Under the pieces are notes generated by a model that worked only from the letters and a program-made list of their open reading frames with translations, was not told the origin of the DNA and did no database searches. A program made the position numbers and the translations under genes. A stretch of 64,000 bases of DNA, taken from the NCBI GenBank assembly GCA_001662655.1, contig KV460226.1; one strand, given 5' to 3'. Shown in pieces: positions 30,195-53,983 of the stretch (its first letter is position 1; every line of letters starts with the position of its first letter). The DNA is from Pseudogymnoascus verrucosus. Its lineage: Eukaryota.

Positions 30195-30239
30195 TATATA
30201 AACTACTCTAAATACTCTTTTTATATATTAAAAATTTAA

Positions 30240-33470: not shown

Positions 33471-34330
33471 CTACTGCGCGAATACACGCACATAGAAACC
33501 CTCCGTTTGAGGGGTAGCGCCGGGCGCTCTTGCACCAGGAGGGAGGGGAAGCACTCTAGCCTCTGCAGCAAAGTCTTTGTGCGTCCATACGCACGGTGTA
33601 AAGGAGCCCACGCAAATGGGACAGGCGAAGGTGGGATTTGCATCCGCTGGGTTATGGTAATCGTTTGTGGGCCACCTCGGATCGGTGACCCGCGACCACT
33701 TTACTGCAACACAGCAAGTCTTCTTGCTACCCGGCTGGGTCCACAGCGCCTCACCTCCCTTCCGGGTAGCACCCGCTTTCTCCTTCCATCCAGCAATCTT
33801 CGCATCGACGCGGTCGATGGTAGCGGCCGAGATACTGTGCGCGATCTCGCCATCGGCTAGGCGCCCAACCGCGAGGAATTCCACCGGCGCCTATATAGTC
33901 TGGAGGGATCGCACGGTGATGCTGCCGGATGGCACAGAGCTCGGCGATTGCGCAAGGCCGGAGACGGGGACGGGTGCTGAGGTAAGAAATTATAGCTTTG
34001 TATGGTAGATGTACTTGGTGAGGTGCGATACAATTTGATGAGGAATGTGCGTGTGTTTAGGGTATGGCAGTGTTGACAGTTGAAGCGTCTGGATTTGCCG
34101 CTTACCGGGGGATAGGGGCCATCTATCAACAGCTTCACTTTAGTGGGATACTACGAGCAGACACTATCTCGCTCTACGGTATAGCATTACAGCGTCTACT
34201 TTACTTCTTTTCCTTCTTCTACTGTGACACTCCTACTCTACTCTACTTCTTTTCTTTTCTACTATACTCCTACCGTACGCTCTACTCCCTTTCTTTACTG
34301 TGCCATACTCTACTCTATGCCTTGGCCTCC
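33471..34330. repeat. Internally deleted copy of the 40.1-43.1 kb module
   Basis: 33700-33982 is similar to 40200-40472, and 33995-34330 is near-identical to 42815-43150. Confidence 0.85.
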
Positions 34331-34694
34331 TTCTACTGCATTCGATTCTACAAAGTGGAAGCTATGTGGACTATGCTGGTAAGTGTGTCTAGACCACACT
34401 CTTGTGACGGCGTTTACCTCCTCTGTATTCCTGACCTTCTTGAGCTCCTCTACTAACCCTTAGCCGTAGTCCATGATCGTGTCGACCCTATGTGTTAACA
34501 GCGTCGAGTTTTAGCCGTAGATCATCGTGCGGCAACATAGCATGTCCTTAGAGAGAAAGTCGCACGGCCACACCTGCCTGAGGTTTCCCTTTCCCCTCTA
34601 CGAGCGATATACGTGTCCATTGAGGCCTGTGATAGCGATTGTACCACACGATAGGTTAGATATACACTCCCTAGGGAAGAAGGGTTAGGATCTA

Positions 34695-36175
34695 ACAAGC
34701 GTGTCACCTTAGCCCGCTTTCCAACAATCTGCGAGACGTCGACGGCCTTCGCGGGAGTAACAGGGCCCGTGTTATTTGATGAGAGGAAACTCATGTTGAG
34801 AATGATGAGCTTTTGAGGCATCGCGGCTGCTGATGGAGCACCTTCGTAGATTCCATAGTATGCTAGGTCGGTGTCGGCCGATGGGAGGGAGGCGATGTAA
34901 GGTTCCTTAAGCGCGAGGGCGGTGGCCATGAATAACATGCTGTAGTATCTGCATCAACGCTGTTAGTCTCTATTTGTCTTGATGTCTTAATATGGCAAAT
35001 TCCAAAGGTTTAACTTACGTTGGGTAGACCGCAGCAGGTTCCCCATTGTGTGCGACGGGTTGCCACGCGCTGTAGTAGAAGGGTGTGCCCATGTGAAAGT
35101 AGACGCCGCCTATTCCTATGGTCGCGCCGTGAAGCATGTAGTCCAGCTCCCACAGTGCAGCGCCAAGGGTATTGCTCACGCCCCTTTTACCATGACAAGA
35201 TACACTTCCCGTCTCACCCATCAAAAACGGAACACCAGCTTCCTCTGCAGCCTTGATCTCGGTATCCCACTGAGCGAGAAATTCCACCAAGGCAGTGTGA
35301 TTCATGAGATTAGGAAGCGACACTAGCTTAGCTCTCTCGGCTGGGCTTCATTAAATAGGAACGCAAATTTTGGGGCTTATAAAACTTACGATCGCACATA
35401 GAGTACGGATACGTGTGATCCGAAAGTGATACCGCATAATCCACCTTCTTTGGCAGCCCGAGAGCAACGATCTCATCGAGCGAGAAATTTCCCTGATAGA
35501 CAGGAAGCTGTGCGAGTGCCCTAATCGAAAACCCCTTCGCGGTTTTCTTGGCTAGCTGATCCAGCCAATCTTCTTGCTGTGCTACGTACGTCTGCAGGTT
35601 CCATGGCTTCGGTCGCTGTGACCCGTAGAAGTCGGGTTCATTGCCTAGTTCGTATGCGCGCAGCCGCGACGGATGCATATACTTCTCCGCTGCTTTGACC
35701 TCGGCGAGTGGGATCGAGACGTCATTGCCGCCCAAATTGAGGCCGAAGATGAATTCCTAGCGCGGAGGAACGTTTTCGTTTAAGACAGTGAAAAGGTTTT
35801 TGTTGTAGCTGGTGGCAATAGCTTCGTCGTTGCTAGGGGTGAAGGTGTTATTTAATGTCTCTAGGCAGCCGGCGCAGAACGACGCGGCGTCTTGGGTGTG
35901 TCTACCTAGGCGGATGACAAGAGGATTGCTAACTAAGTCCTCGATGTTTTGGAGGAGGTTGAGGGAGAGGACGTTGGGGCTGTCGACGTCCCTGAGGTAG
36001 TCTATGACGTAGCAGAACTCAATGGAGAGTGAGGCTATGTCTTTTGGGATTGGCCTTGCGGCAATGTTGGCTTGGGCAGATAGTTTAATCACGGTTGAAA
36101 CTGCGACGTCTGCCGCTAAGGGGCTGCATAGTGCACTTGGCAGTAAGAGCAGCACTGACGCCGGATTGTTGAAGC
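34695..36175 (-). pseudogene. GH79 beta-glucuronidase pseudogene, 3'-truncated
   Basis: SLSIEF, IRLG(R)HTQD, YELGNEPDFY, FLMGETGSVSCHGKRGVSNTLGAALWELDY and YFHMGTPFYYSAWQP. TAG stop at 35757 and Gly>Arg (G>A) changes. Confidence 0.85.
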
Positions 36176-37029
36176 CTTAGACAAATGCATCGTGAAGCTG
36201 TCAAGCGAGATATTAACGAATGGCTGGGGGTTGGATTAAAGCTGTGGGTGAAGCTCTTATAAACTACATAACAACTAACACCCTCGATATCGGTTTGTGA
36301 GTCCGGAGACTAAATGAGGAATTCGGAACCATACAACAAGCCGGAAAATAACTTATAGACCAGTCCTGGTATAAACATGACTTGTCCGCTAACCTAGGGC
36401 AGATAGCTCCTTGCATACGCAGATCGCAAGCCATTGCCGATCACTCCTAGTATTCACAGAGAAATTAATGACAAGGTAGAGAATAATTCTGCCGCATTTG
36501 ATGATTTAACCTTATAGTACCAGTAAAATGACTTAATGGAAATATGTAGTAAGGTGGAATCCGGTTGAGCAATTAAGGGGATTTGCGGGGTAGCGGGGTA
36601 GCGGGGTAGCGACAAAATGCGGAGATGCTAGTAGTTCTCCATACGTTTAGTTTTCTTATTAGTAGCGGAAGCTCTACTTCCGTCAACTCACAACAAATCT
36701 AATGAACAACTACACACTGTTCTATCTCTGCATTTTATCCCTAATTTCGGACCTCTTTTCTTTATTTCCCTTCCTATCTATCTCCACAAAGAAGGTTGCG
36801 GGGTGGCAACGGCACTAGAGGTGGCCCACATTTCAAAGGATAGTACCACTGCACTGATTATCCCTCAGCTAATCGATGGTCTCTTACCACCTAATGATCC
36901 CTCATCACTTCCTAGTCAACTCAATTAGAGGATCTCTTCGACGTTGTCGTGCCTAGATACATGGTCGCACGTTTACCGAAAGGCACCTTGTCGTCACTAC
37001 TCGACTTGAGATAGATTGAGTTACAAAGG

Positions 37030-37520
37030 CCTATCTCAAGTCAGCAAAGTATCTAAGGTATGAACAGCCATGCGCACATAACCGTCGCCTAAGGTGTCAT
37101 CACCTATGGCACTGTTTAGTAGGGACTGCGCTGCCATGCCAGTATCTAAATTTGTGAGATCTTTGGAATGAGCTTGCGGAGGTAGGGCAGCTGTGCGGCG
37201 ATAAGTTACCAAAGTCCGTCGCAACCATAACGACCGTCTCGTACTCTCCCACTGGCACACTAATTCCATGCGGTCCGCTGAACAAAGCCAGGCGAGGTAC
37301 GGAGTCGCGCTATTAAGCGCCATACGGAAAGTTCGCAAGTCAAGCCTCTCCGAGGTTGGATGAAAAGCTCCAATGTGTTGGCCCAGTTGGTTATCACGGA
37401 TGGGTGGCTGTGCAGGAAAGACCAGAAGCTGACTGAGGGAATCCATAGGTTGATATACTGGCCAGCTTGACTTCGATGGGCCGAGACATTGTCATCAGGA
37501 CTATACTCTCTAGTCGATGT
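37030..37520 (-). pseudogene. Ferric reductase/NOX-like FAD/NAD-binding fragment
   Basis: AGQYINLWIPSVSFWSFLHSHP, LELFIQPRRGLT and FSGPHG..YETVVMVATDFG. Frameshifted. Confidence 0.75.
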
Positions 37521-38698
37521 GAGTGATGAAGGCTCGAAGGAAATGGCAACTTCATGCTTGTTCCGAAACATCATGACGCCGCATTGTGTAAAGCGTAAGC
37601 CTAGGGTCTCACGGGAGTCCAGGGAACCAGGTCAGGAGGCAGGAAGGGTATCGTATTCAGTAAGCACAATAGGTCTACGTAGATACAGCGACTATTGACT
37701 GGAGTCCTCCACTGAGGCTCCAGCCCCTGATATATCTTCCTATACCGTGAACCCTAATAACCGGGCTATACCCGAATGACAGCTCCACCGTAGGGCTGCC
37801 TTCGGCGTGGCACCTCACGTGCCATCACGTGAGGACCGCCTTACACATTGAAAGGCGAGCAGTGCGGCGAACACACGTGCAAAGATGTAGACGTAGCTCC
37901 AGTCAAAACTAGACTGGGATATGACATGTCGTACAGTGGAATATACTACGAATGGGCCAGAGCTTGATGCGTGCGGGGGAAGATCTCGTAGAAGGGCCCG
38001 CGTAAGTAGTGAATTGAGAGGAGTATGTGACGACACAACGTCGTTTCATAGCCTAGTTCGCGATATTGACATATTAGTGCACATGACGGCTAGAGCTAAA
38101 ACTGATCCCGGAGGCAGATCTCCGACGTTCCATGACATACTATATTTGCAATTCTGAACTCCCCTAAACAGGCTTTGAATGCGCGCGGTGTATGTACGTC
38201 ACGGAGCGAAGCCGTAATACGACGCCACCCACGTCGAGCCATTAAGATCTTACCATTGGCCTTCTTTCACTGCCGGGCCGTCAAACATTGCCGTCCACAA
38301 GGGGAGTGGCGCTCTCAAGGTTACCCTACTTTATTCTAGTAGGGTCTTCCCCACACGGAGCTTAATCAATCCAATTTTTAGTTCCCCGCATAGAACAGTC
38401 TCATATGCTTAGCGCATCTTAACCTGCGGATCAATATTCCGTATCTTTGCTACGGACTCTTTATTTTCGCAGCATCGGAGGGACGCCTTCCATTCTCTTG
38501 GCCTAGTTTGTGTGATGCTGTATGGACGTCAGCGGTGCCACGAGGCCAGACCGGATTTGCCAAAATAGTCTAGTCAGACTCACCGACAGAAAAAAGGGGG
38601 ATCACCCCAAAGTATATAAATCAACCCATGGATCGACAAATAATGATCAACCTCTCCGCATTTTCACTCCACCAAATTAGACAAACACATCAAGAAAC

Positions 38699-39463
38699 AT
38701 GAAGGTCACTGCGCTTAACATCCTCGCACTCACCACCTTAGTGGCTGGTCTCACGTGCCCAAACAACTCTGGCGGCGGATGCGGACAGTACACTGTGTCT
38801 GGCCTGGGCTCGCGCAAGACGCAAATTAAAAATGCTGGAGGTTCATCCCGTGATCTTGCGATCGCTATGATGGAGACCGAGAAAATGGATACCAATTACG
38901 CGTGAGTAGCATTTGGGTTGCTCATCTAGCCTATTAGGCTAACGTAGCGTAGATACGGTGACAACAAGAGCGGCGATGCAGCAAACTTCGGTATTTTTAA
39001 GCAGGTATGGTCCGGAATCTCTATAGTTTCAACAGCCGGGTCTAACCGGAGCAGAACTGGGGAATGCTCCGCGCAAGCTGCAGTCAATTCAAGGGACAAA
39101 GTTCCAGCCAGTACAATAATGGTGCCGTATTGAACTCTAATCTAGCCTCAGATCTTTCATGCAGGCACCAGGGAGAGAGCTACTACGGTTACCAGAAGTC
39201 AGTCACATGTTCTTATCCTCCTTATTATGTAGGTCCTAATATTCTAAATAGGTGGGTTGCTGGACACCGAAATGGTGCCTCTGGTCTAGCGAACCCGAAC
39301 ACAGCAGACATCAACCTGTACAAGGGAGGTGTTGACTGGACTGAGCAGCAGCTTAACGGTGGCCACTTGTCTGACAACGAGCGATTCTGGGTCGACGTGT
39401 AAGCTATAGCATTCCTCTTGTAATATACTAAGGTGCTAATTTAGAGACAGTGTTCCGATCTAA
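38699..39463 (+). CDS. GH134 endo-beta-1,4-mannanase (Man134A-like), secreted, 4 introns
   Basis: YTVSGLGSRK, DLAIAMMETE, YGDNKSGDAANFGIFKQNWGMLR, WVAGHRNGASGL and RFWVDV match the remembered Aspergillus Man134A sequence. Confidence 0.88.
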
Positions 39464-40119
39464 ATCTCTAGCCATACTTGACTTAAGTGATGAGGGTATC
39501 CGAGACGTAGTAGCTATAGCTTATAGGGTATGCTAGGGTAGTAGCTTGCTCTAGGGGTATCTAGCATTAGAGTATCCTACTCTTCTGTAAATAGTGCTCG
39601 TAGCTGAGCGAAGTACTTTGTGCTTAATTAAAGCTAAATATATTAAGGCTATGTTCTTTATGTTCAAGTTAGTGGTTTAGCTCGGATCGCGGTGTATAAA
39701 CTGAAATTTAAAATGTTAAAAGAAAGTTGCGACAAAATGCTAGAGAGGTGACCGAGCAAGACGGTAGAATTCGGAGACGCACGGCAGCAGCAGCAATTAG
39801 GGTCGCGGAAGAAGCAAAGCCATTGCTACATGAAAGGCGCTAGTGTAATAGAGGGATGAACTTATGCGTAAGGTAGCAAGTGGCGAGAAAATCCGCCTTA
39901 ACGGGACGGAGATCATGCACGAAAACGTCACCTCCCGTTAAATCCCCTTCCCGCCTTACTGTCATCTCTCTCGTAGCATACGGCTCTAACTTCCTAAACA
40001 ACCTTAATCCTTCTTAAAACCCTAACCCTAATGTGTGCTTGTCATTATGTTCTTGTATAATCGCCCTATCTATAAACGCCCTATGTAAACTAGCAACTCT
40101 AGCCTTCTCTACTATACCC

Positions 40120-42785
40120 CTAATCCCGGCGGTCCTTCCCATAGTAGTTGGACGCTGGCTGTGCCACGACTACTCGGGAGGTCCTGGACTTCAGCTCCAC
40201 GCAGAGAATCCTCTTGCTCGTGGGCTGATGCCACACCCTCCCTGATCCGGGACGATTCGCCTCTGCCCTCGCCCACCACTCGGAGATCTTGGCGGCGACG
40301 TGGTCAATGGCCACGACCGAGACGCTATGCGCAATGGCGCCATCGCGGAGACGCCCAGTCGCAAGAAACTCGACTGGGACGGCCATGGTGCGGGGAGATC
40401 ACACGGTGATTGTGCCGGATGGCACAGAGCTCGGCGATTGCGCGAGGCCAGAGACGGGGACGGGTGCTGAGGCAAAGCCTCCTGCGGATGGGATCTGGAT
40501 CCCTGGAGCTGGCGGTGGCATCATACCGCGACCCTGCGATGGGCCCGGGAGAAGATAAGCTGGCGCAGGGCCAGAGAAGACACCGCGACCCATCGTAGGG
40601 CCCGGGAGAACCGGAGCTGGCATCGCACCAGAGAAGACGCCGCGCCCTGCAAGGTCGGACGGGAAGAGCGAGACGGTAGGCGCCCCTACAAAGGGACCGC
40701 GACTCCCAGATAAACCCGGGGCGATGGAGGCTGGCCGACGGCCAGGCGGAGCAGTGCGGTCCTCGGCGGATCCGGACAGGACAGGGACTGGCGCAAAGCC
40801 AGAGAAGATCTGCCCCGGTCCGCGAGAGCTAGAGCTCGCGGAGCCGGGGCCTGCGAGCTGGCTCGGTGAGCCCTGCGAGATGTGCCGTGCGAGGCCAGAA
40901 GACCGACGCTGGCTCGGTGAGCCAGGGGATGCGCGCGACGCGAAGCGGGATGGTGAGCGCTGACCCGGGGATCCGGGAGAAATCGCGGCGCCAGCGGAAG
41001 TCAGAGGCTCGAATGAGCCGGAAGCGGGCATCGCGCTCATCGCGGCGGTTGGGGCGGACGGTGCTGGCTCGAAGCCAGGCGCACCGCCACCACCGGAAAG
41101 AAATGGCACGGGGCCGTGGGACGTGGAGGAGAACGGCGGAGAACGGCGGATGACGGGACGTGTCTTCGTCCTCGTCGTCAGAGGTAGAGACAGCCCACTC
41201 TACCCTCTCCGACGACACGTCGGACGTCGACAACGCCCGCCTCTTCTTCCGATTCCATTCCTCGAGCGCTGAGCCACGACGCCGCGCAGACGGCGTCTCC
41301 GATGGTGTCATCAGCGTATCCCGCTGAGGTGGGAGAATGTGGGGGGTTCCCACGGGGAGGGGCGTCGGATCGCCAGGGGAGGGGATCACATGTGGGCGAC
41401 GCGGGATAGACTCTGCGAAGGTCAGGGCTCCGCGTCTCGACGGTGGCGGGGGCTGTTCGCGGGGATCCGCGAGCTGGCGCAGGAGCTCGGTGATTTGTGC
41501 CTTGAGCGCGACATTCTCCTCCTCGTGCAGTCTTGCGGTGGCCCTCATCTCGCCGATGGCCTCCCCATGCTTTGCTATCAATTCCTCCCGCAAAGTAGCT
41601 GCGGTGGTAAGGTCGATTTTCTGCTGGTCGATTGTGGCCTTTGCGCGCGCGAGCTCGTCAATGAGCTTCTGCTTCGTAGTATCCCCTACCATGTCTTCGA
41701 TCTTCGTAAGAGCTATCGTTATCTGAGCGAACCCCATCGCCGTATCGTGGTGGGCATCCCCGACGAGTGCTTCAACTGCTGCTATTTTCTTCACAGCAGT
41801 ATCCACACCGCCGGAGACGCCCTTGATCCCTGTGAGACCCTCTGCTGCAGACGTGGCTGCGCCCTTGATGTCGGCCTGGATCCCCCCCGCACCCCCGAGC
41901 AATTCAACGATACCGGCAATCTTCTCATCGCAGCTCTTCGCGGCCGTGGTTGATCCCCTCGATGAGCTCGCTCATCGCCTTCATCCCATCGATGGTAGCT
42001 AGCTTGTCGAATATCTTCGCGGCATCATAGGAAGAAGTCTTCAGCTCCTCGATGAGCTTATGGGTGTTTGTGAGATCCTTCGCGGATGCAGTCTTCTGCT
42101 CCTCAAGCAGCTTTGCCATAGCCATATCAGCGGCCGTCGCCCGCTTCGCCTCCTTCGCCTGGTCCTCCGCGCTCTTCTTCAGCTGGTCCTGGATCTCCTT
42201 GGCAATAGTGGTGGGAGCCCCGTCGAAATAGTTACAGAATTCCATAAACCCCTTCGCCAGCCGCCCATCCGGACCCTGCGTCGTCTCGAGAAACTCTTTG
42301 ATATCTTCAAGCCCCTCATCCACCGCACGGCGGACATCCCTCTGCTGCTTGGTCGTGAGACCCTCGTCCGGTACGCCCGGGATCTCATCAATCGCCTCCT
42401 TCACCATATCCAGCTTCTTATCGAACTGTTCCATCTTCTCATCATGGGCTTTGAGAATGGCACTTCCAGCCTGGTGCGCTCGGGTGAGACTCTGTGCTTG
42501 CACCCGCTCGAGGCGGCACACCTCCTCGAGGGCCACGAGGGGGACGTTGAGGAGCTGCGCGGGCAGCTCTGCGGCATCACGGCGGGAGTTTAGCATCTCC
42601 TCAACCTGCGCGGCTGTGTCGAATAACAAAACCTCCTCCGTCTCAAGTACCAAAGCATCTATCTGCGAGTCCATAAGATTCCCTGCGAGAGCTGGCACCT
42701 TGCGGGATCCCAGGACGCCGCGGCCGCGACGCCCCCTTTGCGGAAAATTCCCCCCTCCCCTCTGAAAATTCGCTGATGGTTGCAT
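40120..42785 (-). pseudogene. Large unknown gene: RG-rich N-terminus, long coiled coil, Pro/Ser/Gly-rich linker, C-terminal globular domain
   Basis: ORFs 41925-42989, 40829-41902, 40399-41109 and 40120-40386 join through two frameshifts and one TGA. The 33.9 kb copy has CGA at that codon. Confidence 0.6.
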
Positions 42786-43186
42786 AATCTCGTTGCTTCG
42801 TATGGTAGGTAGGCTTGTATGGTAATGTGCGATAATTCGATGAGAAATGTGCGTGTGTTTGGGGTATGACAGTGTTGACAGTTGACGCGTCTGGATTTGC
42901 CGCTTACCGGGGGATAGGGGCCATCTATCAACAGCTTCACTTTGGTGGGATACTACGAGCAGACACCATCTCGCTCTACGGTACAGCATTACAGCTTCTA
43001 ATTTACTTCTTTTCTTTCTTCATACGATACTCCTACGATACACTCTCTACTTTACTTCTTTTCTTTTCTACTCTACCATACGCTCTACTTTACTCCTTTT
43101 CTTTACTTTCTGTGTCATACTCCCACCATACGCTCTACTCTACTCTACTTCTTTTCTTTCTTCATACGATACTCCTACGGTACGAC

Positions 43187-44461
43187 ATGGCTACCCGACA
43201 GTCAATCGCGCAGAAGTTCCTGGATGCCGAGGAGACCAAGCTTCTCGACCTGGTGAAGGCAATCCTGGATCAGGACGGATACTTAGACGACGAATACATG
43301 GCGTCTCAGTACGCCTACTCAAAGCAGGCTATCATGCTTGCGGCATATCACATCCTCCTCGCCACCCCGTCAGTAGTCCTTCGGGCTATCATTCGGGGGG
43401 ATCTCCCAGCCATGTCCGGGAACGTAGAGGTCCAGTACCTCCAGGACCCAAAGTACACAGAGGTGCCGCCGAGATACGAGTTTATCTATCCTACGATTTA
43501 TACCATCTACCTCGTCGATCGAGAGACCCATGATCCCCCGACCGTCGAGTACCTGCTCCTCATCATCCATAGCATCCGACAGGTGGCTGGCCCTAGTGCC
43601 ATCCAGCGACCCGCTATGGAGACGGCGCTCAAGTTATGCACGGAGCTGGAGATCCGCATGGCGGGCCAGCAATTGCGGGATCCCATTGTAGGGGGGATCG
43701 TGGACGTTGGATTTTCTGGGGATAGCGCCGCCCGGATCGACCAGCACCTCGCGGATGAGAGCAGCAATAAGATCATGCAGATATTTGCTGACGCCGCCAT
43801 CTGAGAGTTTGGCGAAACCTACGAGCTCCAAGGCTGTATTGTGGGCAGGATGAAGAAGCTAGAGCATTGTGCCCTCGCTGAAATCATCTTCTCTCGGATG
43901 GCGCAGAGTTATACCTCTCGGGGTGGAGGGTTCAACGGAGCCATCGCCGGAGCCAGCATCCAAGGGGCCCACGCCCTTACTGGTGTCGCATGGGAGGAGA
44001 TCGCAGGGGTGGCACCAGACTGGGTGCTCAGCAATCACTATACGTCTGATGCGGCGAAGGTGCGTGCTGTGGTCCAAGACCACCATGCCCGAATTTCCTG
44101 CGCGCAGGCCGTGGCGCCGCACCAGGCTATTTATGGCAGAATTCAGGGGATGCTCTCCGCCGAGGAGAGTGCTAGTATGGACGCCTGCGCGGATGCAGCT
44201 CGCTCTGTCGCTTACAGCCAGCTGGCTGCCGGAGACTACAGCCAAGGATCAGAGGATGGCACCACCCCCGCAGACCGCGCCGACGAGACCGAAGATGACA
44301 TGGAGGACGGTACCGTACAGGAAGACGACGATGAGATCGAGTCATATGGGCTTGCTCCTATGATGGACCTGGGATCACCGGATTATGAGCGGGACGTTGA
44401 TCCCATCATCGACAGCAGCGACCCCATCGTCCCAGCTCTTCGCCGCGCTCGCCTTCCATAG
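43187..44461 (+). pseudogene. Hypothetical protein with GIY-YIG-like motifs, one internal TGA (43802)
   Basis: A single frame gives PTIYTIYLVD..VDVGFS..RIDQH..SSNKIM..EIIFSRMAQSY..GGGFN followed by an acidic tail. Confidence 0.55.
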
Positions 44462-45091
44462 GTGTTTATTTTGTTTTTTTCTATTGTTCTTCCTATCATA
44501 CAGCACCTCTTGTCATCCCCCGTTTTTCCTACCATACAGCCCATCTTGTCATCCTCTACTTCCTCTTCCCCCTCTCATTTTCCCATCGTACAGCCTGTAC
44601 CTGTCATCCCCCGTTTTTCCTTGCTTCTCCTTTTTCTCCTTTTCGTTGTATCTTAGAGTTCTTCCAGCTATTATAGGCCTATAGCGAATGAAAAGATGTT
44701 CCCTGTGTTCCCGTATCGCGTGAATGGTAAAAGCAGTGCCATATAGCTATATGTAAATAGAGATTCCGTTTATTTATCGTGGGAATGCCATAATTACCCC
44801 ATACTACCGCTTATTCGCACCAAGGCGTAAACAGTGAATTTTTGTTTTCGCTTGCCCCCTCCGCTCCAACTCTCATCAGAACAATCTCACTTTACCACTT
44901 ATCCCCCTCTGCTCCAAGTTTGATCAAAACAACTTCACTTTGCTACGTACTCCCCTTTACTCCGATCTCTACGTTTACGTTTGCTCCGAGCTTAGTCCTA
45001 CGATCTTTCCTGGATCCTACCGATCTACAATACCATCATCAAACTCACCACCACCGATCTTTCCTGTCCTCGACTTCTGATAGAAGCCGCC

Positions 45092-47092
45092 ATGAGCTCT
45101 CCTGCTCCTGCATCCGACGGTGATGCCCCCTTGATCCCAGAGACGCCGCTCACGAGTCACACGAACTCGACACAAGATACTCCGGATCCGAACAACCCAC
45201 ATAAGGCAAACACTACGAAGTATTTCGCCTTTTATCCCCTCTTGGATCCTGGAATGTTCGAGGCGTTTGACGGAGCAGCGATATTTGGCACCACCGCATT
45301 GAACAAGCATCGCATCTCCGATAACCTTGCGAGTAAGATCATCATCTGGGCGACAATCCACAAGAAGCCGAAGTACGGTTTTATGGCGCGCAACTACTTT
45401 GTTACATCCGGCAACAACGTCCGAAAGCGCGGGAAAGTGATCGGCTTTGGATCCCCCTTCATCTATGAGGGAAAGTTCGTCAAATATGTAGGGGATCCTA
45501 TTCACACAATGACCGGACAGGGCTAGAAGGTTGGGATCGCAGCGGGCGACGCATGGAGTATTATCGAGCTCTGTGAGAAGCAGGAATTCGTCGATTGGTT
45601 CCATCGGATATGCGACGGCAGATTCGCTATGTTTACGCCGGATATCCTGAAGAAATACCCCGCGATTCTGAAGAGTATAACCTCGCCGTCGCTCCCAAAT
45701 TCCATCGGCGGACCAAACCCTCCCCTAGGCCCATTTTTTGGGGTAGATCCCGCAGTCTTTCCTCCTGCTGTCGTATCCTGACTTATGGCAGCGTCTCTCG
45801 GATCTGTAGTGCCTACTGCAAATCCATTTTTGGCGGAGGCGGCGCTCGTGAAGAAAGCGCTCGCTGGCCCAACCCCTCTCGGCGACCATACGCCACCCCC
45901 TCAGGCCCCTCTGCCGCCGTCTGATCAGACTCCCACGCCCGCGCCTCTCCCAGCACCCCACGATCGCACGCCTCTCATCCGAGCAGGACTCCCTGCAAAC
46001 GACAATGGCCTCGCCGGCTCCCCGCCGCATACTACCAAGACCCAGATGGTCCGACCACGGCCAGTGAACCCGGCGCACCAGAGCGCCCCTGCGAAGCTCG
46101 CATCAGCTACGATACCAGGGCTTCATTTGCTCAGCCGCCCGCCGCCCGTGTTTGATCCAGCCGGTATTTGCGCCCCATTCTCTCTTCCCTTCCGCCACCC
46201 CATGCGATACGACAATCCTGAGGAGTTCGATTCCGAGTTCTCCCACGTCGAGTATGAACGCACGCCCTCCCCGTTCATAAAGGGTGAAGACTATGATCCG
46301 CTTCTTTTTGGGGCGCCTGCGTGGAAAGCGCCACAGACGGATAGCTCGGAGGAGTACGAGCCAAAACTCGAATATGATTCAGAGTACGATCCGGAGTTCA
46401 TGGAGCAGGTGCAGCAGCAGCCGGTGCAGGAGCCGGCGCAGCAGCAGGATCCGGCGCAGCAGCAGCAGCCGGTGCAGGGGCCAACGCAGGAGCTAGCGCA
46501 GCAGCAGGAGCCTGCGCAGGAACACCAGCAGGAGTCGGAGCAGGATCAGAGGCGGAAGGCTAAGGAGCAGGACGACAAACTTCGGTCGTTCGGCACCATG
46601 AGAGCGGGATGCCCTAAGAACCCTACCTACGAGTATCATTCAATCTCTACGACACTCTTTGATCCCTCGAAGACCTATACTGAGACTCCCCCCTTTGTTA
46701 ATAACACGAACTTCAAAGGACCTAACTTGGATTTCCCTCTCCCACCCCCATCCGACACCGACTCGACCCCGCGTCCACGCGATCCCTCTCCTATGAAGGG
46801 AGTCCGCACTACCATAACGGCGTCGGATGGCACAGTATCGTCTGTGTATGGTGAGGACGAGGATGAGGAGACCGGCAAGGCTTCGGAGATTAGCTACGAC
46901 GGTGATCTAGAGATCGGCCCCGAGGATGCAGAGATAAGCTTTGAGGATGAGAAGGAGATCCACCCTGACGAGGCCGTTGATAACCACATCCTAAGCAGCA
47001 ATGACTCGGATTATAGGATTCCATTTGGGGGGGGTAAGCAGAGTGGTATCGGACGCGAGCTAGGTGAGGCCGGCATGGCGGGCAATACCTAG
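45092..47092 (+). pseudogene. Novel-domain, Pro/Gln/acidic protein, one internal TAG (45524), fused to an ALDH tail
   Basis: ORFs 45092-45526 and 45785-47092 are in the same frame. The N-terminal domain is shared with 50843-51622. Confidence 0.6.
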
Positions 47093-47131
47093 ACTATGGC
47101 CGCTCATGTTAATATGGGCTTGATATTCTAG
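46993..47131 (+). pseudogene. Aldehyde dehydrogenase C-terminal fragment
   Basis: SSNDSDYRIPFGGGKQSGIGRELGEAG..T*TMAAHVNMG. Confidence 0.8.
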
Positions 47132-47513
47132 GTGGTGGGTGATGAAGCCGTGAGACGTGAATAGAGGGGTGGGTTTTATCTATCTAGATTTACTTGCTTC
47201 TAAAATTAGAGCAATACTAACTATTACTACCACGAACAGAATAAGCTAGCTGCTGTAAGATTTCTGCAAGGATCTCGTGCCATTAGGTAAAGTGATGATG
47301 AGCTGTGGGTAAGCAGGGTAATGTGAGGCCTTAGCTTACATACCATACTAAGGGCGCCTTTGCTCCTAATTTTGGGATGATTCGCCATTTGTAAGCCATT
47401 AGTTAGAGCCATGCATCTAAGCCTTGAAAGTTCTATAAAGAAACCACAAGAGGCTTAGTTTTTAGTACGTAGTATTTTTCGCGTTAACCTACCGTGTATA
47501 ACGGTTCCCTATG

Positions 47514-47838
47514 AGACATTAAGACATTAAGACATTAAGACATTAAGACATTAAGACGTTAAGACATTAAGACATTAAGACATTAAGACATTAAGATGTT
47601 AAGACGTTAAGACATTAAGACGTTAAGACGTTAAGACATTAAGACATTAAGACATTAAGACATTAAGACATTAAGACATTAAGACATTAAGACATCAACG
47701 CGTTGAGGCGTTAAGACATTAAGACATTAAGACATTAAGACATCAACGCGTTGAGGCGTTAAGACATTAAGACATCAACGCGTTGAGGCGTTAAGACATT
47801 AAGACATCAACGCGTTGAGGCATCGAGGCGTTGAGGCG
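47514..47838. repeat. 8-bp tandem array (GACATTAA)n with GC-richer variants
   Basis: About 40 units. Variants include GACGTTAA, GACATCAA, CGCGTTGA, GGCGTTAA, GGCATCGA and GGCGTTGA. Confidence 0.95.
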
Positions 47839-48166
47839 CGATGTTCTTTTTCCTTTAAGCCTACAATATGCGTAACCTTGTATGACGAGTTCAATGTGGT
47901 AATGCGGTATGTGGGTTTTAGCATCTACTTAACAGCAGCAGCAAAGAGGGTAACGTAATTCACATCACAGCCCACATCCTCTTCTTCATTTCAGCATTAA
48001 CAAATCAAATTTAGCTATAAATAATAAGGCTAGATACTAATCCGCAGAAAGGAAATTTTAGCAGCCCGCTACACCATCTCTTTGCCCTACAGCCGCCTCG
48101 GTCGTATCAGAGAGGATTGTGGATTTGCCGCTCGTCGCCACGCCCAACGCTTACTCCTTATCACAT

Positions 48167-48772
48167 TCATGGCGAAGTAGGCGAGCCAGTGGCCTCAGCC
48201 TCACCAGTGCGGGTGCGGGTGATGGTGCGGGTTAGGAAGCGGGTCTGGGTGGTGGTTTGGTGGTCGTGGCCACTGCCGGTGCCAGTTGGATAGGGAATAC
48301 TGGTTTGGTGGTCGTGGCCACTGCCGGTGCCGGTTGGATAGGGAATGCCGGTGCCGGTTGGCCAGGCAATGTTTGCGCCAGTAGGGCCTTGGCCACTGCT
48401 GGTGCCAGTTGGATAGTGCATGCCGGTGCCGGGTGGGTAGGGAATGCCGGTGCCGGTTGGCCAGGCAATGTTTGTAGGGCCTAGGCCACTGCTGGTGCCA
48501 GTTGGATAGTGCATGCCGGTGCCGGGTGGGTAGGGAATGCCGGTGCTGGTTCGCCAGGCAATGTTTGTGCCAGTAGGGCCTAGGCCACCGGTTGGCCATG
48601 CACCAGATGGGAAGATGCCAGCGGGAATGTCTGGGGGAGTTAGTTGAGTTCATGGTAGCATGGGCCACAGTTGGCCTATATTACGATTGTGATTCTTACC
48701 ACCGCCTCGAGGAGCTGGCGCAGCTACGGCGACGACGACGAACAGGGCCTGGACGAGGTATGTGAATTGCAT
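48167..48772 (-). CDS. Small secreted Pro/Thr/Gly-rich repeat protein (PTGTG repeats), one intron
   Basis: Signal peptide MQFTYLVQALFVVVAVA and an intron near 48632-48699. Repeated NIAWPTGTGIPYPPGTGMHYPTGTSSG units. Confidence 0.7.
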
Positions 48773-50398
48773 TTTGAATTGAAGTTGAGTTTAACAAGAA
48801 GGCCTTGTTATGAATTAGGTGAATGTGATTGAGCTAAAGAGATTTTGAAGAATTTAGATTGAGGAAGTTTTCTTTGGAAACTCGAGGTGCTTTATACCTG
48901 ACTCTAGCAAGTACTCCATGATTTCCCCAGTCTCCCATCCGGAGGAGGTTGCAGTACCCCTTAGTTAATGGCCGAATGCAACAAGTGTTGTCTAGCCATT
49001 TCGCACGATATGCTAGGTGGTCGATCTGGCCCTATTCTCATAAGAGCTTTACAAACCTAGAATATTTTCAAATACCTAGGAAATGGTTGACATTCTAACA
49101 CCTCTTTCCTAATGCGTCGGGGCCTGTAGAATTTATATTTGGTTCACCTATGTCTTACATTACTAGCCATACTAAACAAGGGGAACGTTGCTAGGTAGTT
49201 AAGCAAAAATGACAAGGCGGCTAGAAACCTAGGGTCTAGTTGTGGATCGATGGGATCCCTAGCCTCCTCGCCGCTATAGAATATTAGGCGAAACTTGAGA
49301 CCTACATAGGACTAATGCGTAAGTGATGATGCCTAGTAAAATCACTAGGGGGATAGAGTAGGATTCTAATTTATTTAGTAGTACTGAAGTAGGATGCCAT
49401 GGTGATCGCTATTGTAAACAGACAATATTTTCTGTAATCATTAGAAAACTCTTAATCATTGTGTACGATTCCGGAAAATAATTGCTGCTTCTTAACAACA
49501 ACCTTATATGACAAGTAATACATTGCTAGTACACTCGCTATATAGAGTTTAAACATAAACATCTATACGCGATATAATAATAGTCCTACTACAACTTACT
49601 CGAATTCTTTCAAAGTATGCCTACATCCGACTTAATTGGTAGACACCGTAGGATTATATAAACAACCTTGCCTTATTAATTACTACGTAGGGTTGCTACT
49701 AGTTACAAATAGGGGTTGAGAACGGATATCCCCGCCACATAAAACAGCTAGATAAGGTTCACCATCCGTTTTATCATAATTTGTTACCGTTCTACTTTTA
49801 GCCTAATAACTTAAGATCTAGGTAGTTAGGGTAGTCCCCCTCACACGATTTCACGTCTCTACACACGTCTGTACACGTCTGCACACGTCTACGTTTCCTT
49901 TTACTATTTCCTTTATTATTTCCTTCCTGTTTATATGTCTTCTAGCTATAGTTTAATAAAAATTGTTTATAATGATTCCTATGCACGTGAATGGGGGTTG
50001 CTCAGGGTGCTCTGCTGCTATCTATGCCGCTCTGTAAGTGTACGCACTATATTCCCCATTAACATATATAAAATTCACTTCAATCTCTAATTTCAGTAAG
50101 TAAAGTTTTAGGGTATGTACCTCACGCTTGCAGGCGCGTTACCTGAGTTGTTTCGCCTACCTTTGTTTTGTTTTACGTTGTTTTGCATACGCATCAACAC
50201 CTTGCATACGCATCAACACTTCCTATTTCCTTTACATTTCCTCTACTATACCTGCAAGCTTCCGATATAAATCGAGTAATCATACAGATCAATCAAAGAA
50301 GTCTTGCACCAAACCTTGCATCTTGCACGTCGTAGGTTACTCCTTAATTCCTATCGACAACCTCACTTCTAACTTGCAAAATAGATCGATTAATCGCA

Positions 50399-52363
50399 AT
50401 GGATCCTCAGCACCAGCCCGGAGATCTCTCGCATCAGTCTGGACAAGCTTAATTCAATCCCCCGCAATTTGGCCAAACTGCACAGTTTGGCCAAGTTAGC
50501 CAGCCGGGACAGCAGCTGCCCAGGTTTCCTGCACAGCACACGCAGGTGCAACAGCCCGGCCAGCTCAACCACCCCACTCAGCAACCAGCTAAAACCCAGG
50601 CGAACATGCAGCAACAAGGGCCTTTCATTGCGGATATGCAAGATTTCAGGAATTACTCCAGCCGCATGTACTCCGTTCCGCCATTATCAAACCACTTCCT
50701 CGGAGAATCCTAACAGGTGCAGCAACACCTGCAAAGCAATCTGCCTCCCCCGCCACCATCCGAGGGTACCACTAGACTTCGCTGATCGAGTTGGAGCAAG
50801 AACTTAAGTCCTCGCAAAAACCCCGAGCCACGTAGAGGCCCTATGGGGCCCCCTAACTCGAGTTCTTCTCAAGGACATGCAGGGAGCCCTGCGAAGTCGG
50901 ACTCCCTAGTAATCCAGTACAGCAAGCGCTCTCTTGCCTATTATAAACAGTTTCCAGTTTATGACCCAGGTGTATTCGCACCTTGGGACGTAAAAGTCGA
51001 TCTGAAGGTGCACCGTCTCTCTAACGACCTTGGCGTGAAAGTCTTTGTACGAGTCCATACTGAGCAGATCTCTGAGAATGTCGGGACCGCAGCACCCAAC
51101 TTTTACACGCCTAGCCACCACCACGTCCGCACTAACGCTAAAGTCGTCGGGGAGGGAGCTCCGTTTGTGTATAATGGGAAGAATACTCATACCCAAAAAT
51201 ACACATTCCCCGGGAAGTGGGGTTTGAAGCTGAAGACTAGGCCGCCGATCGAGGAACTTGTCGAAAATGAAGTGTTCCTTGCATACATGCAGCGGGTCGC
51301 AGAAGGCAAATATGCCATCTTCACGGACGAATTCTGCCGCAAGCATCCGAAAATCTTTCTCAGCATCACGTCTCCGTCCACCCCAGGATCGATCAGGAGC
51401 GAAAACCCACCTGCCGGACCTTTCTTTGGGGTGAGCCCCCATCTGTTCCCTGCAACCGCCGTGCAGGATGCAGACAATCTCCGCACCAAGATGCTGTCGT
51501 TGGAGTATACAAAGGACGACGAGGAATTGGACGACGAGGAATCGCAGCCTGCCCCCCAGCAGCCGCCACCAAACTTTCCCCCGGCCGCCCAACAGCCTCC
51601 GATCTTCTCCCAGCCCCCCTAGAATCTGGTCCAGCAGCCACCGGCCATGAACACCCAGCAGCCTCCGAACTATTCCCCGGCTGCCCAGCATCCTTCGAAC
51701 CCCCCAAACTTCGCCCAGCAACATCTGGGATTTTCGCAGTATGCCCAGGGACCATTCGCTTCGCAGGCCGGATCCTCATTCCAGGCCTATCAAGGCCAAG
51801 GCCACGCAACCGGCAACGATCAGGGCCATACATCATGGCAATCCCTAAGACCACCCCAGGAGATGCAGCCTCCCCGTGGCCACCAGCGTGCCATAACATA
51901 CCCCGCCACCCACCCCATGCAAAATCAGTTTGGAGGAAAGCAGGAGTACGCCTAGAACAATATATACCACTACCCTGCGTACCAAGGCGAAGGTTTGCAA
52001 AGACAAGTCTATCTGGCAGCTGCATACGAGTTTGCAGCGAATCGTTCGGGAACACCCAGCGCCCAACAGGGCAATGCCGCTCAATACGACACAGGTCTGC
52101 GTAGACCCTCTGACGCTCTCATGACGGATGGCCCGAGACGCCCTGAGACGCCCTGCGTCTCCGATGCCTCCCGCATCGATACCCTGCTCGAGAAATTTAA
52201 GGACGATTTGGGTTTGATTTGTAGCGACTCGGTGCTCAAGGTACGCAAGCACCCGCAAGAAGCATTCAACCAGATCAAGGTCCTTCGGGACACCTTTGAG
52301 GGTCTTGTGGGAGAATCTGAGGCCGTTATGCACAGCATCTCGAACTTTCCTCGCAATGAGTGA
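50399..52363 (+). pseudogene. Gln/Pro-rich protein with a domain paralogous to 45092-45780, several in-frame stops
   Basis: ATG 50399 and ORFs 50843-51622, 51647-51955 and 51995-52363 share one frame. Stops TAA/TAG occur in Gln-rich (CAA/CAG) context. Confidence 0.65.
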
Positions 52364-53983
52364 GAAGAGTGCACACGGATTGTTCTTGCAACGCCCTCTG
52401 ATTTTCTCTGCGCTATCCGCCTGCAACGAAGTTTTTTTTTCCCAACCCTCTGCGCCATCCTGCGAGTCCCAACTCTCTGAAGTTGTATATAGGACCTTAA
52501 TTACTTGCAAGTTACTAATCTTCGACATCGCTCTGCATCGTTGTGCTCTGCATCGTTGTGCAACTCTCTGCCATTGATTGCAGGATCCCGATTGTTCCGG
52601 ATGCTTCCAAAGCCTTGCAAGTCCTTGCAAGAAAAGCTATCAAGTCTATTCTAAAGAATTGAAACTATTGATCTTTGCCTCCGCTTGCAAATCGTGACTG
52701 TTCTGTGACCCTCGATGAACTTCCCCGTAATCCCCAGCCCTTTCTTGCACCCACCGCCACAAACAGCCTCACAAAGCCCATCACACCCTGCAAACATCTG
52801 CGCGCGCCCTGAAATTCCCCAGCAAACCACAAATCCAATCCCCTTTGCATCCCCCCTCTGAAAATCCCCAAAATTCACTCCCCCCGACGCCACCCAACTC
52901 CCTGCGACTTCCTGCATCCCCACGCCTACCCAAACCACAGTCACTCTCCTGCCCCAAACTCCGCACAGTCACTGTCATAATCCCCCACCCACGCCAAACC
53001 CCGCACAGTCACTCACACCCAAAATCTCCACTACCGTCACTAACCTAAAATCTAAAGGTAGCGGTAGCTAAACACCTAAACACACACGGCGACTAAACCT
53101 AGACCGGACAGACAGACAGACGGGCTAAACAGCGAAATATACCTTGCCTGCATCCCCTATGTGACGCTTGTAGTATGGGCGCGGATACTCGGCTTTCCCG
53201 ACCTTTGAGCAGAGCGCGGGCGGTGTGTAGTCAGCCACGACGCCACAGCCAGCTCGAGCTCCTCGTGCTATCCCATTGCGAGCTCTCTCGCACGAGGCCC
53301 CCCCCCCTTCCGCTTTGCGAACGGAGGGAGCTAGAACCCGGGAGCAAACTGCTGGAGCTATGCAACCCTTTTTTTTTTTTTTTTTGGCGTGTCTGTTAGC
53401 CTTTCTCCCGGTTCTCCGGGTTGAGATTTTAAAGGGGGGGGTGATTTTCTTGGGCTATGAGGGTAGGGGATGGGGGATGGCTACGTAGCGGCGTTGGGTG
53501 TAGGATGGGGATTAGGAATAGGTGACGGGTATGATGATGATGATGGGACATGGGTGACGAGGGTGGGAATGCCGTTTGTCATGACAAGACGACGTGAGGA
53601 CTCGGTATACCGGGACCCGCCCGCCCAGCCGCCTGTCTCCTAACTGCCAGGCCTTACTAACTGGCCCCTCTTAGTCAGAATGCGACGTGCAGTTCTCTCG
53701 GTTCTCTCTAATGCGTGTGGATCGCCGCGGAGCTACCAGCAGTGTGCACATTAGCAGGGGAAGGGCGGTAGTTGGTACTTGGCGGCATGCGACAGCGGGA
53801 GTAGTGGAGTGTAGTCGCGGGTACTTGACGAGCTATGAACCGATACTAGTGCTGGTGCTAGGGACAGCGAGCCTTGTGATGAGGTCGTGTGCGTGCTAAA
53901 AACTTAAATTTGACAGCGACTGCCGGCGAGTGCCGGGTAGCACTACATGCTGCAGGTGCTATGGCTGATTGACGACTTTACTT

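What the first reader, a model, noticed from the sequence alone, without database searches (positions are those of the whole stretch)
40017..46992. Candidate undescribed mobile or selfish element: GC-rich three-gene module with a putative nuclease
Seen: an apparently intronless 7-kb block with (A) a ~890-codon coiled-coil/Pro-rich/Cys-domain gene, divergent from (B) a 424-codon GIY-YIG-like gene, followed by (C) a novel-domain gene. Each is hit by only 1-3 lesions, with C>T/G>A stops. Parts recur twice more in the window (33.5 kb and 50.4 kb). The left edge is a telomere-like dimer and the right edge abuts a broken ALDH. I recognise no transposase, RT or recombinase. Inference: a repetitive, RIP-targeted multi-gene element of unknown class, or a nuclease-based drive or conflict system.
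Basis: partly seen in the sequence, partly recalled or inferred. Interest (0 to 1): 0.78.

Follow-up and report, generated by a model that had tools for sequence, protein, structure and literature searches.

The report
Decaying nuclease gene trio, not transposon
This stretch of a Pseudogymnoascus fungus holds three recently broken neighbouring genes, one of them from a large unnamed family of GIY-YIG-type DNA-cutting enzymes, but nothing shows that the block moves as a mobile element.

Summary
At 40.1-47.1 kb lie three intronless genes. A is a minus-strand gene of about 888 codons (coiled coil, Pro-rich). B has 424 codons and C about 665. Each carries 1-3 point lesions.

A model at pLDDT 85 has the I-TevI catalytic domain as its best match among 48,161 solved chains (Z 6.6, 87 of 92 residues, 2.1 A). 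Tyr, Arg, His and Glu are invariant or nearly so in 58 diverse relatives. B belongs to a Pezizomycotina-wide family (516 cluster representatives) that matches no Pfam model above threshold.

B and C are neighbours in all three Pseudogymnoascus loci whose context I could read, so they form a conserved module.

The mobile, repetitive, RIP-targeted reading is not supported. Contigs of three related genomes run through the block into both flanks. There are no terminal repeats and no transposase. RIP indices are normal. Two of A's lesions are slippage insertions that the relatives lack.

Best reading: a lineage-specific nuclease-plus-partners cluster that recently became pseudogenes in this genome. 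A selfish nuclease module remains possible (about 0.2).

The parts
40020..40031 (+). Exact (CCCTAA)2 telomere-like dimer, about 90 nt beyond the stop of truncated gene A
   Evidence: A second exact copy lies at 27573-27584. The flanks of the two copies are unrelated.
40120..42785 (-). Gene A pseudogene. It has an RGG-rich N-terminus, a coiled coil, a Pro/Ser-rich region and a truncated C-terminal domain. Lesions: a 1-nt insertion in the C-run 41955-41958, a 10-nt tandem duplication at 41130-41149, TGA at 40399-40401, and loss of the last ~60 codons (Cys motif).
   Evidence: Both insertions are absent from runs X3, X4 and X6 (table 4), and their removal joins the three frames.
42786..43186 (.). 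Shared divergent A-B intergenic region with pyrimidine-rich short repeats. It is copied at 33995-34310.
43187..44461 (+). Gene B pseudogene, 424 codons. It has an N-terminal helical domain, a GIY-YIG-fold core (about residues 101-253) with a ~55-residue helical insert, and a long helical hairpin (279-349). One CGA>TGA stop lies at 43802-43804.
45092..47092 (+). Gene C pseudogene. A conserved N-terminal domain (about residues 40-230) is followed by a low-complexity tail. It has TAG at 45524-45526 and TGA at 45779-45781. Its last ~25 codons (about 47003-47077) are an aldehyde dehydrogenase C-terminal relic.
   Evidence: The public gene model P0016 splices out both stop-bearing stretches, although they are conserved coding sequence in P0017 and in the window's paralogue.
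33477..33986 (-). Relic copy of the C-terminal domain of A. The Cys motif is intact and there is one stop. It lacks the start codon and the whole middle of the gene.
33995..34310 (.). Relic copy of the A-B intergenic region. No B coding sequence follows it.
50825..51463 (+). Old paralogue of the N-terminal domain of C (33% aa identity to P0017). No B-like sequence lies upstream of it.

Best explanation
The block is a low-copy, vertically inherited gene neighbourhood found in Pseudogymnoascus. It is not a transposon.

It holds a divergently transcribed pair, A and B, followed by C:
- B is a divergent GIY-YIG endonuclease. By analogy with solved GIY-YIG enzymes (inferred), Tyr105 activates the attacking water, Arg183 and His187 hold the scissile phosphate, and Glu232 binds the metal ion. 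The second (YIG) tyrosine is replaced by Asp or Glu in most of the family. A helical insert, an N-terminal helical domain and a C-terminal helical hairpin are added to the core.
- C, always found directly downstream of B, is most likely B's working partner, either a targeting or a regulating subunit (inferred).
- A, a coiled-coil protein, is a looser associate.

In the window's genome all three genes were recently inactivated by ordinary mutations: CpG C>T stops and replication-slippage insertions. An older rearrangement had already cut off the 3' end of A. Nearby relics (33.5-34.3 kb, 50.8-51.5 kb) show that the module has been duplicated and eroded locally, in a region that also holds RIPped repeats and interstitial telomere motifs.
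For: Fold:
- The model built from the 58-sequence alignment has pLDDT 85.2 and pTM 0.78.
- In a search of 48,161 chains that does not rely on Foldseek, rank 1 is the I-TevI catalytic domain 1ln0_A (Z 6.6, rmsd 2.1 A, 87 of 92 target residues, 20% identity, model residues 101-253).
- Rank 21 is a second nuclease over the same part of the model: the restriction endonuclease 9u75_A (Z 4.7, model residues 86-244). That it is a GIY-YIG enzyme is my recollection, not a tool result.

Motifs in 58 sequences: Tyr105 58/58, Gly175 57/58, Arg183 57/58, His187 58/58, Glu232 58/58. Position 173 is Glu in 34, Asp in 13 and Tyr in 6.

Sub-threshold Pfam matches:
- GIY-YIG (2 of 58) and T5orf172 (3 of 58) are the most recurrent families.
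- These matches fall on B residues 165-227, the motif region.
- The Atlas searches point to the same superfamily.

Family size and range:
- 516 representatives at E<=1e-3 and 165 at E<=1e-10.
- Named members come from Zymoseptoria, Zasmidium, Alyxoria and Pseudogymnoascus.

B-C linkage, in 3 of 3 loci whose context could be read:
- the window itself;
- V493_01110/V493_01111, on one 24,117-nt contig;
- ACLOAV_007912, which carries a B N-terminal part and then the C domain (phmmer E 8e-19).

Not mobile:
- Run X3 record 9 (11,316 nt) covers 35006-37581, 37846-42984 and 43153-46465 in order.
- Run X6 record 24 (9,706 nt) covers 37846-43008 and 43153-47541.
- In X3 the mean word depth is 40-42 in all but one bin from 35002 to 47007 (35.4 in the bin over the repeated A-B spacer). 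Divergence in the block (1.1-2.4%) is like that of the flanks (1.7-5.5%).
- No terminal repeats.
- No transposase, RT or recombinase in the 8 reading-frame pieces of A, B and C, in 25 long ORFs from across the window, or in 76 ORFs of 70 aa or more at 23-40 and 47-57 kb.

Recent decay: the 10-nt and 1-nt insertions in A are absent from X3, X4 and X6. The 24MN13 orthologue of B is intact at 95% identity.
Against: - The relatives laid on the window are only 1-5% diverged. Their shared position cannot exclude an older insertion.
- I could not read the DNA around B, C or A in more distant fungi, so flanking synteny there is untested.
- The families are patchy, have at least two copies in some genomes (V493_01110 and V493_01706; V500_05184 and V500_01519), diverge fast (53% identity within one genus) and leave relics nearby. 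These features suit a selfish or conflict gene as well as a dispensable ordinary one.
- Both ends of the block are rearrangement points: A is truncated near (CCCTAA)2, and C runs into an ALDH relic.
- The structural match has Z 6.6, below the tool's own caution line of about 8. Neither Foldseek search gave a match at E<=1e-3.
- No expression data are available.
Confidence: 0.6

Rival explanations
1. This is a relic of a selfish nuclease module. B would be the toxic or homing-type nuclease. C (and perhaps A) would be its antidote, inhibitor or targeting partner. The module would spread by cleavage and repair or by killing non-carriers, then decay once fixed, as here.
For: - GIY-YIG enzymes are typical of homing endonucleases and other selfish elements (abstracts of PMC1564403 and PMC3045582, seen in the listing).
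- B and C are tightly linked in 3 of 3 readable loci.
- The family is patchy, low-copy and fast-evolving, with paralogues in one genome.
- There are local relic copies.
- All three genes died together in one lineage.
Against: - There is no presence/absence difference among the four genomes laid.
- No intron or intein host, no defined ends and no repeated target site were found.
- The catalytic residues are conserved across a very wide family, which also fits a housekeeping-like cellular role.
- I have no genetic or expression evidence.
Confidence: 0.2
2. The block is cargo or debris of a larger mobile or unstable region, such as a Starship-like giant element or a former subtelomere captured internally. 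In that case the unit that moves is much bigger than the 7-kb block.
For: - Two exact (CCCTAA)2 motifs lie in the same orientation at 27573 and 40020, each at a compositional boundary.
- A strongly RIPped block lies at 27.3-33 kb.
- Gene relics (ALDH tail, copy of the A domain, copy of C), tandem repeats and a polymorphic MITE-like insertion cluster between 27 and 56 kb.
Against: - No tyrosine-recombinase (DUF3435) or other element-defining gene was seen in ORFs of 70 aa or more at 23-40 and 47-57 kb or in 25 long ORFs from across the window.
- Ordinary enzyme genes (GH79-like, GH134) sit between the relic and the block.
- The RIPped block has no readable ORFs and was not tested.
- The window is too short to see the ends of a giant element.
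Confidence: 0.12
3. The genes are intact and expressed. On this reading the 'lesions' are sequencing errors, or they lie in introns as in the public gene model.
For: The public model P0016 (605 aa) splices around both stops in C.
Against: - The spliced-out stretches are conserved coding sequence in V493_01111 and in the window's own paralogue.
- Contigs of run X2 carry the same insertions in A, while three relatives lack them.
- The stop in B lies inside the conserved GIY-YIG core, between His187 and Glu232.
Confidence: 0.03

Closest known systems
GIY-YIG homing endonucleases (catalytic domain of I-TevI, PDB 1ln0)
   Same: - Same core fold: 87 of 92 residues superpose at 2.1 A.
- Same ordered set of Tyr, Gly, Arg, His (four residues after Arg) and Glu.
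- Their spacing matches my recollection of I-TevI, which no call checked.
   Different: - B is a free-standing nuclear gene in a fungus, not in an intron or a phage.
- The YIG tyrosine is Asp/Glu in 47 of 58 members.
- A ~55-residue helical insert lies between the first two strands.
- It has N-terminal helical and C-terminal hairpin domains instead of the I-TevI linker and DNA-binding domain.
- It stays below the Pfam PF01541 threshold.
T5orf172 / MUG113-type GIY-YIG proteins (PF10544)
   Same: - T5orf172 gives sub-threshold matches in 3 of 58 family members, on the same motif region.
- It also appears as a low-scoring Atlas lead.
- From my own recollection, fungi carry proteins of this type.
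   Different: No member reaches the curated cut-off. The best is E 0.0049 at 17.8 bits against a cut-off of 20. B itself gives no match at E<=5.
Fungal toxin-antidote or spore-killer loci (for example Spok genes)
   Same: They are also nuclease-associated, lineage-restricted, patchy, duplicated and often pseudogenised. This comparison is recalled, not tested here.
   Different: By recollection, Spok is a single gene joining a nuclease-like domain and a kinase domain of other folds. Here I saw no kinase and have no drive evidence. The candidate partner is a separate gene.
Starship giant transposons
   Same: They occur in Pezizomycotina and carry lineage-specific cargo (abstracts of PMC10104507 and PMC12289983, seen in the listing).
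   Different: No DUF3435 tyrosine recombinase was found in the ORFs scanned. No element ends were seen. The block is collinear with its flanks in relatives.

Membership tests
GIY-YIG nuclease superfamily (gene B) | Core fold of three strands packed with helices, as in the I-TevI catalytic domain | tested here: met
   1ln0_A ranks 1 of 48,161 chains (Z 6.6, rmsd 2.1 A, 87/92 aligned). The model has pLDDT 85.2. Caution: Z is under 8, and neither Foldseek search gave a match at E<=1e-3.
GIY-YIG nuclease superfamily (gene B) | First-motif (GIY) tyrosine | tested here: met
   Tyr105 is invariant in 58 of 58 sequences.
GIY-YIG nuclease superfamily (gene B) | Second-motif (YIG) tyrosine and glycine | tested here: inconclusive
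   Gly175 is present in 57/58. The Tyr position is Glu in 34, Asp in 13 and Tyr in 6 of 58. B has Asp173.
GIY-YIG nuclease superfamily (gene B) | Conserved Arg, then His/Tyr four residues later, then a metal-binding Glu about 50 residues on | tested here: met
   Arg183 57/58, His187 58/58, Glu232 58/58. In the window the TGA at codon 206 separates His187 from Glu232.
Pfam PF01541 GIY-YIG / PF10544 T5orf172 | Score at or above the curated gathering cut-off | tested here: not met
   B and its orthologue give no match at E<=0.1. The best family members reach 19.2 bits against 22.6, and 17.8 against 20.
GIY-YIG nuclease superfamily (gene B) | Metal-dependent nuclease activity | not testable with these tools
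   Needs a biochemical assay of an intact orthologue.
Transposable element (any class) | Terminal inverted or direct repeats and a target-site duplication at the ends of the block | tested here: not met
   no repeat pairs the two ends of 39400-47600.
Transposable element (any class) | Transposase, reverse transcriptase, integrase or recombinase gene | tested here: not met
   No such Pfam family was found in the block, in ORFs of 70 aa or more at 23-40 and 47-57 kb, or in 25 long ORFs from across the window.
Transposable element (any class) | Several copies at non-homologous sites, or presence/absence between genomes | tested here: not met
   Contigs of X3, X4 and X6 bridge the block and its flanks in the same order. 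Only close relatives could be tested.
RIP-mutated repeat | TpA/ApT above about 0.89 and (CpA+TpG)/(ApC+GpT) below about 1.03 (thresholds recalled) | tested here: not met
   The block scores 0.65 and 1.23. The 27.3-33 kb control scores 1.64 and 0.56. Window-versus-X3 changes are T>C 89 plus A>G 74, against C>T 85 plus G>A 86.
Starship | DUF3435 tyrosine-recombinase 'captain' at one end | tested here: inconclusive
   None was seen in the ORFs scanned. A captain could lie outside the 64 kb or in the unreadable RIPped block.
Homing endonuclease gene | Residence in a self-splicing intron or intein, or next to its own cleavage site | tested here: not met
   B is a free-standing ORF between A and C. 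An Rfam scan for group I/II introns was not run.

The most novel reading that the evidence does not exclude
The B-C pair, with A as a frequent third gene, may be a previously unrecognised nuclear selfish module of Pezizomycotina. It would pair a GIY-YIG nuclease with a dedicated partner and persist by cleavage-and-repair copying or by toxin-antidote killing. The window would then show a dead copy plus two older relics.
Probability: 0.18. Interest if true: 0.8.

Novelty: new variant of a known kind. Interest (0 to 1): 0.42.

Why it matters
- It defines a large family (516 representative clusters) of Pezizomycotina-wide GIY-YIG-fold proteins. No member reaches a Pfam cut-off, and every source name I saw is 'hypothetical', 'uncharacterized' or 'unnamed protein product'.
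- The family has an unusual acidic replacement of the second catalytic-motif tyrosine and a conserved downstream partner gene. That gives a concrete enzyme and a two-gene hypothesis to test.
- It shows that a public gene model hides pseudogenisation by splicing around stop codons.
- For the scan, it is a useful negative: a compact, GC-rich, lesion-bearing multi-gene block next to RIPped DNA need not be a transposon.

Tried and rejected

Context searches that found nothing:
- Scans with A1 and with P0164 found no relative. The DNA context of distant B relatives could therefore not be read.

Structure and binding:
- The first B model, from 10 sequences, was poor (pLDDT 50.5). It was replaced by the 58-sequence model.
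- Foldseek against PDB and BFVD gave no match at E<=1e-3. Among the 50 weak BFVD rows, 9 are named GIY-YIG, I-TevI-like, SEG-like or intron-associated endonucleases.
- The pdb_via second look gave only helical-hairpin rows.
- The PDB profile search gave nothing significant. SLX1 scored E 1.4 on the motif region.
- Complex prediction of B (V493_01110, residues 1-320) with the C domain (V493_01111, residues 35-240) gave no verdict. The score was 0.00 and the partner was poorly folded. This is not evidence either way.

Gene C:
- The Atlas gave no usable lead.
- The source's name 'SANTA domain-containing protein' was not reproduced by Pfam, even at E<=10.

Gene A:
- Pfam gave only coiled-coil noise.

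Window-level searches:
- No B-like relic lies upstream of the C paralogue.
- The flanks of the two (CCCTAA)2 sites are unrelated.

Sequencing runs:
- No RNA holder is listed.
- Runs X3, X4 and X6 have little or no cover over 33.0-34.3 kb, so whether relatives hold the relic copy is open.
- Read laying listed only 40 of 788 base differences, so I could not see whether the relatives also carry the four stop codons.

Literature:
- Searches for 'Pseudogymnoascus' with 'GIY-YIG' (4 papers; the 3 whose titles name a genome are on mitochondrial genomes, and the fourth is a review on mitochondrial-DNA markers) and for 'GIY-YIG' with 'Pezizomycotina' (32 papers; 13 of the 15 listed are on mitochondrial genomes or introns) gave no title or abstract on a nuclear fungal family like B.
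- The 2006 superfamily survey PMC1564403 has no occurrence of 'fungi', Neurospora, Aspergillus or Magnaporthe. 'Fungal' occurs only in a reference title (term search only; the text was not read in full).

Full report
**Setting.** The window is from a filamentous ascomycete of the genus Pseudogymnoascus.
- Every named relative of the three genes comes from that genus.
- A public gene model identical to gene C, apart from two spliced-out stretches, is named by its source as VE01_04082 of P. verrucosus.
- Ordinary genes flank the region: sugar transporters, GH30, GH95, a GH79-like gene at 34.5-37 kb, GH134 at 38.7-39.4 kb, and a dioxygenase and a lactonase beyond 57 kb.
- Between 27 and 56 kb the sequence is a patchwork. 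It holds a strongly RIPped AT-rich block (27.3-33 kb; TpA/ApT 1.64, (CpA+TpG)/(ApC+GpT) 0.56), gene relics, an 8-nt tandem array at 47.4-47.9 kb and a repeat-rich ORF at 48.2-48.7 kb.

**The observation.** It is confirmed.
- Gene A runs on the minus strand from 42785 to 40120.
  - Three relatives of 666-1,517 aa (P0012-P0014) align to it in three successive frames.
  - The frame breaks are a 1-nt extra C in the run 41955-41958 and a 10-nt tandem duplication (AGAACGGCGG twice, 41130-41149).
  - There is also a TGA at 40399-40401 where P0014 has Arg.
  - The reading frame ends about 60 codons early, before the Cys motif that all three relatives carry.
- Gene B (43187-44461) has 424 codons and one TGA at 43802, where the closest relatives have Arg.
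- Gene C (45092-47092) has TAG at 45524 (Trp in V493_01111) and TGA at 45779 (Arg). It ends in a ~25-codon relic of an aldehyde dehydrogenase C-terminus.
- The public model of C removes both stop-bearing stretches as introns. Those stretches are conserved coding sequence in V493_01111 and in the window's own paralogue, so the model hides a pseudogene.

**Recurrences in the window.** They are real but partial.
- At 33477-33986 lies a copy of the C-terminal domain of A with the Cys motif intact. It is joined almost directly to a copy of the A-B intergenic region at 33995-34310 (84% over 334 nt; a 188-nt core at 94%). It has no start codon, none of the middle of A, and no B.
- At 50825-51463 lies an old paralogue of the N-terminal domain of C (33% aa identity). 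No B-like sequence lies upstream of it.
- (CCCTAA)2 is exact at 40020-40031. A second exact copy lies at 27573-27584, at the edge of the RIPped block. The flanks of the two copies are unrelated.

**What B is.** It gives no Pfam match.
- A word-seeded search found only 10 relatives; every one that carries a source name is from Pseudogymnoascus.
- A profile search of 1.84 billion representatives found 516 at E<=1e-3 and 165 at E<=1e-10.
- Of 60 of these scanned against Pfam, none matched a nuclease family. Three had unrelated weak hits.
- Named members come from Zymoseptoria tritici, Z. brevis, Zasmidium cellare, the lichen fungus Alyxoria varia and several Pseudogymnoascus species. All carry only placeholder names ('hypothetical', 'uncharacterized' or 'unnamed protein product').
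- With a 58-sequence alignment AlphaFold2 gave a confident model (pLDDT 85.2, pTM 0.78).
- A full comparison with 48,161 solved chains put the I-TevI catalytic domain first (1ln0_A: Z 6.6, rmsd 2.1 A, 87 of 92 residues, 20% identity, model residues 101-253). All other rows at Z>=5 were helical-hairpin matches to residues ~295-358.
- Z 6.6 is below the tool's caution line, and Foldseek found nothing at E<=1e-3. The fold match therefore needs its independent support from sequence.
  - In 58 diverse members Tyr105, His187 and Glu232 are invariant. Gly175 and Arg183 are present in 57.
  - Six members keep a canonical Tyr at position 173. The rest mostly have Glu (34) or Asp (13).
  - The most recurrent sub-threshold Pfam families are T5orf172 (3 of 58) and GIY-YIG (2 of 58). 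Their matches fall on B residues 165-227.
  - The ESM Atlas searches point the same way.
- I therefore place B in the GIY-YIG superfamily as a new, divergent family. It is not a member of any existing Pfam family.
- The roles I give to the residues are inferred from what is known of solved GIY-YIG enzymes.

**A and C.** Neither has a recognisable domain. A has an RGG-rich start, a variable-length coiled coil, a Pro/Ser-rich region and a ~160-residue C-terminal domain ending in a C-x2-C-x6-C motif. C has a conserved ~190-residue N-terminal domain and a low-complexity tail.

**Do the genes travel together?**
- B and C do, in every locus I could read.
  - The window is one.
  - V493_01110 and V493_01111 are consecutive locus tags on one 24,117-nt contig.
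  - P. australis ACLOAV_007912 is an 830-aa model with a B N-terminal part followed by the C domain (phmmer E 8e-19).
- An A relative (P0012) and a B relative (P0019) each lie on a contig of 28,376 nt, probably the same one.
- A is not always linked. V492_02604 (A) and V492_00506 (B) are on contigs of different lengths. P. australis A (ACLOAV_001947) is on another contig than its B-C gene.

**Is it mobile?** I found no sign of it.
- De Bruijn contigs of three related organisms were laid on 33001-53000. They run in the same order through the left flank, the block and the right flank (table 8).
  - X3 record 9 covers 35006-37581, 37846-42984 and 43153-46465.
  - X6 record 24 covers 37846-43008 and 43153-47541.
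  - X4 records 14-16 cover 34505-47541 between them.
- The contigs break only at the small repeated pieces: 40414-40442, the A-B spacer, and the 8-nt array.
- Divergence from X3 is 56 of 5,139 nt and 79 of 3,313 nt in the block, against 54 of 2,576, 34 of 2,004 and 136 of 2,467 nt in the flanks. The block shares the history of its surroundings.
- No terminal inverted or direct repeats pair the ends, and no transposase-type gene is present.
- These relatives are close, so an older insertion is not excluded.

**Is it RIPped?** No.
- The block's indices (0.65 and 1.23) are those of normal DNA.
- Changes between the window and X3 are symmetrical: T>C 89 plus A>G 74, against C>T 85 plus G>A 86.
- Three of the four stops are CGA>TGA at CpG. 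One is TGG>TAG.
- The two frameshifts in A are slippage insertions. They are absent from X3, X4 and X6 and present in X2, and removing them joins the three frames.
- So A was broken recently in this lineage.
- B is intact in the 24MN13 orthologue at 95% identity.
- I could not see whether the relatives share the four stops, because only 40 of 788 differences were listed.

**Verdict.**
- The block is best read as a lineage-specific nuclease-plus-partners gene cluster that has just decayed into pseudogenes. It sits in an unstable, relic-rich region (confidence 0.6).
- A selfish nuclease module (0.2) and debris of a larger mobile or formerly subtelomeric region (0.12) remain open.
- The lasting result is the family itself: a large, unnamed, Pezizomycotina-wide branch of GIY-YIG nucleases with an acidic residue in place of the second motif tyrosine and a conserved downstream partner gene.

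Noticed in passing
window 37582-37845: A 264-nt insertion is present in the window and absent from runs X3, X4 and X6 (joint 37581>37846). It has imperfect terminal inverted repeats (37582-37595 / 37837-37850), CATTG on both sides, and summed contig depth many times that of the flanks (up to about 1,200 at single places against about 40-55). It looks like a MITE-like element that is polymorphic between close relatives.
   Followed up: partly
window 27573-27584 and 40020-40031: Two exact (CCCTAA)2 motifs lie in the same orientation. Each sits at the left edge of a sharp change in base composition, and their flanks are unrelated. They may be interstitial telomere relics. This is unexplained.
   Followed up: partly
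window 27300-33000: A strongly RIP-like AT-rich block (GC 0.31, TpA/ApT 1.64). It contains long inverted repeats: 28638-28916 / 29496-29774 (279 nt, 92%) and 29013-29112 / 29267-29366. It is probably a degraded transposon. No ORFs are readable.
   Followed up: no
window 45092-47092 (public model P0016): The public 605-aa gene model of C splices out two stretches (16 and 39 residues) that hold the in-frame stops. Both stretches are conserved coding sequence in a relative and in a paralogue. B is annotated as a 312-aa protein that ends at its premature stop.
   Followed up: yes
window 47442-47890 and 48170-48680: An array of the 8-nt unit AGACATTA (38 overlapping windows reported) is followed by a minus-strand ORF built of 24/93-nt repeats rich in Gly, Thr and Pro. 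It has no Pfam match.
   Followed up: no
window 37003-38336: Summed contig depth is 3-5 times that of the flanks in all four runs, with many loose ends at 37587, 37708 and 37845. Further dispersed repeats besides the 264-nt insertion probably lie here.
   Followed up: no
window 12792-13268 and 24959-25666: Two separate protein-kinase-domain fragments lie in short ORFs (Pkinase E 5e-22 and 2.5e-22). They may be exons of intron-rich genes or further relics. I did not examine them.
   Followed up: no
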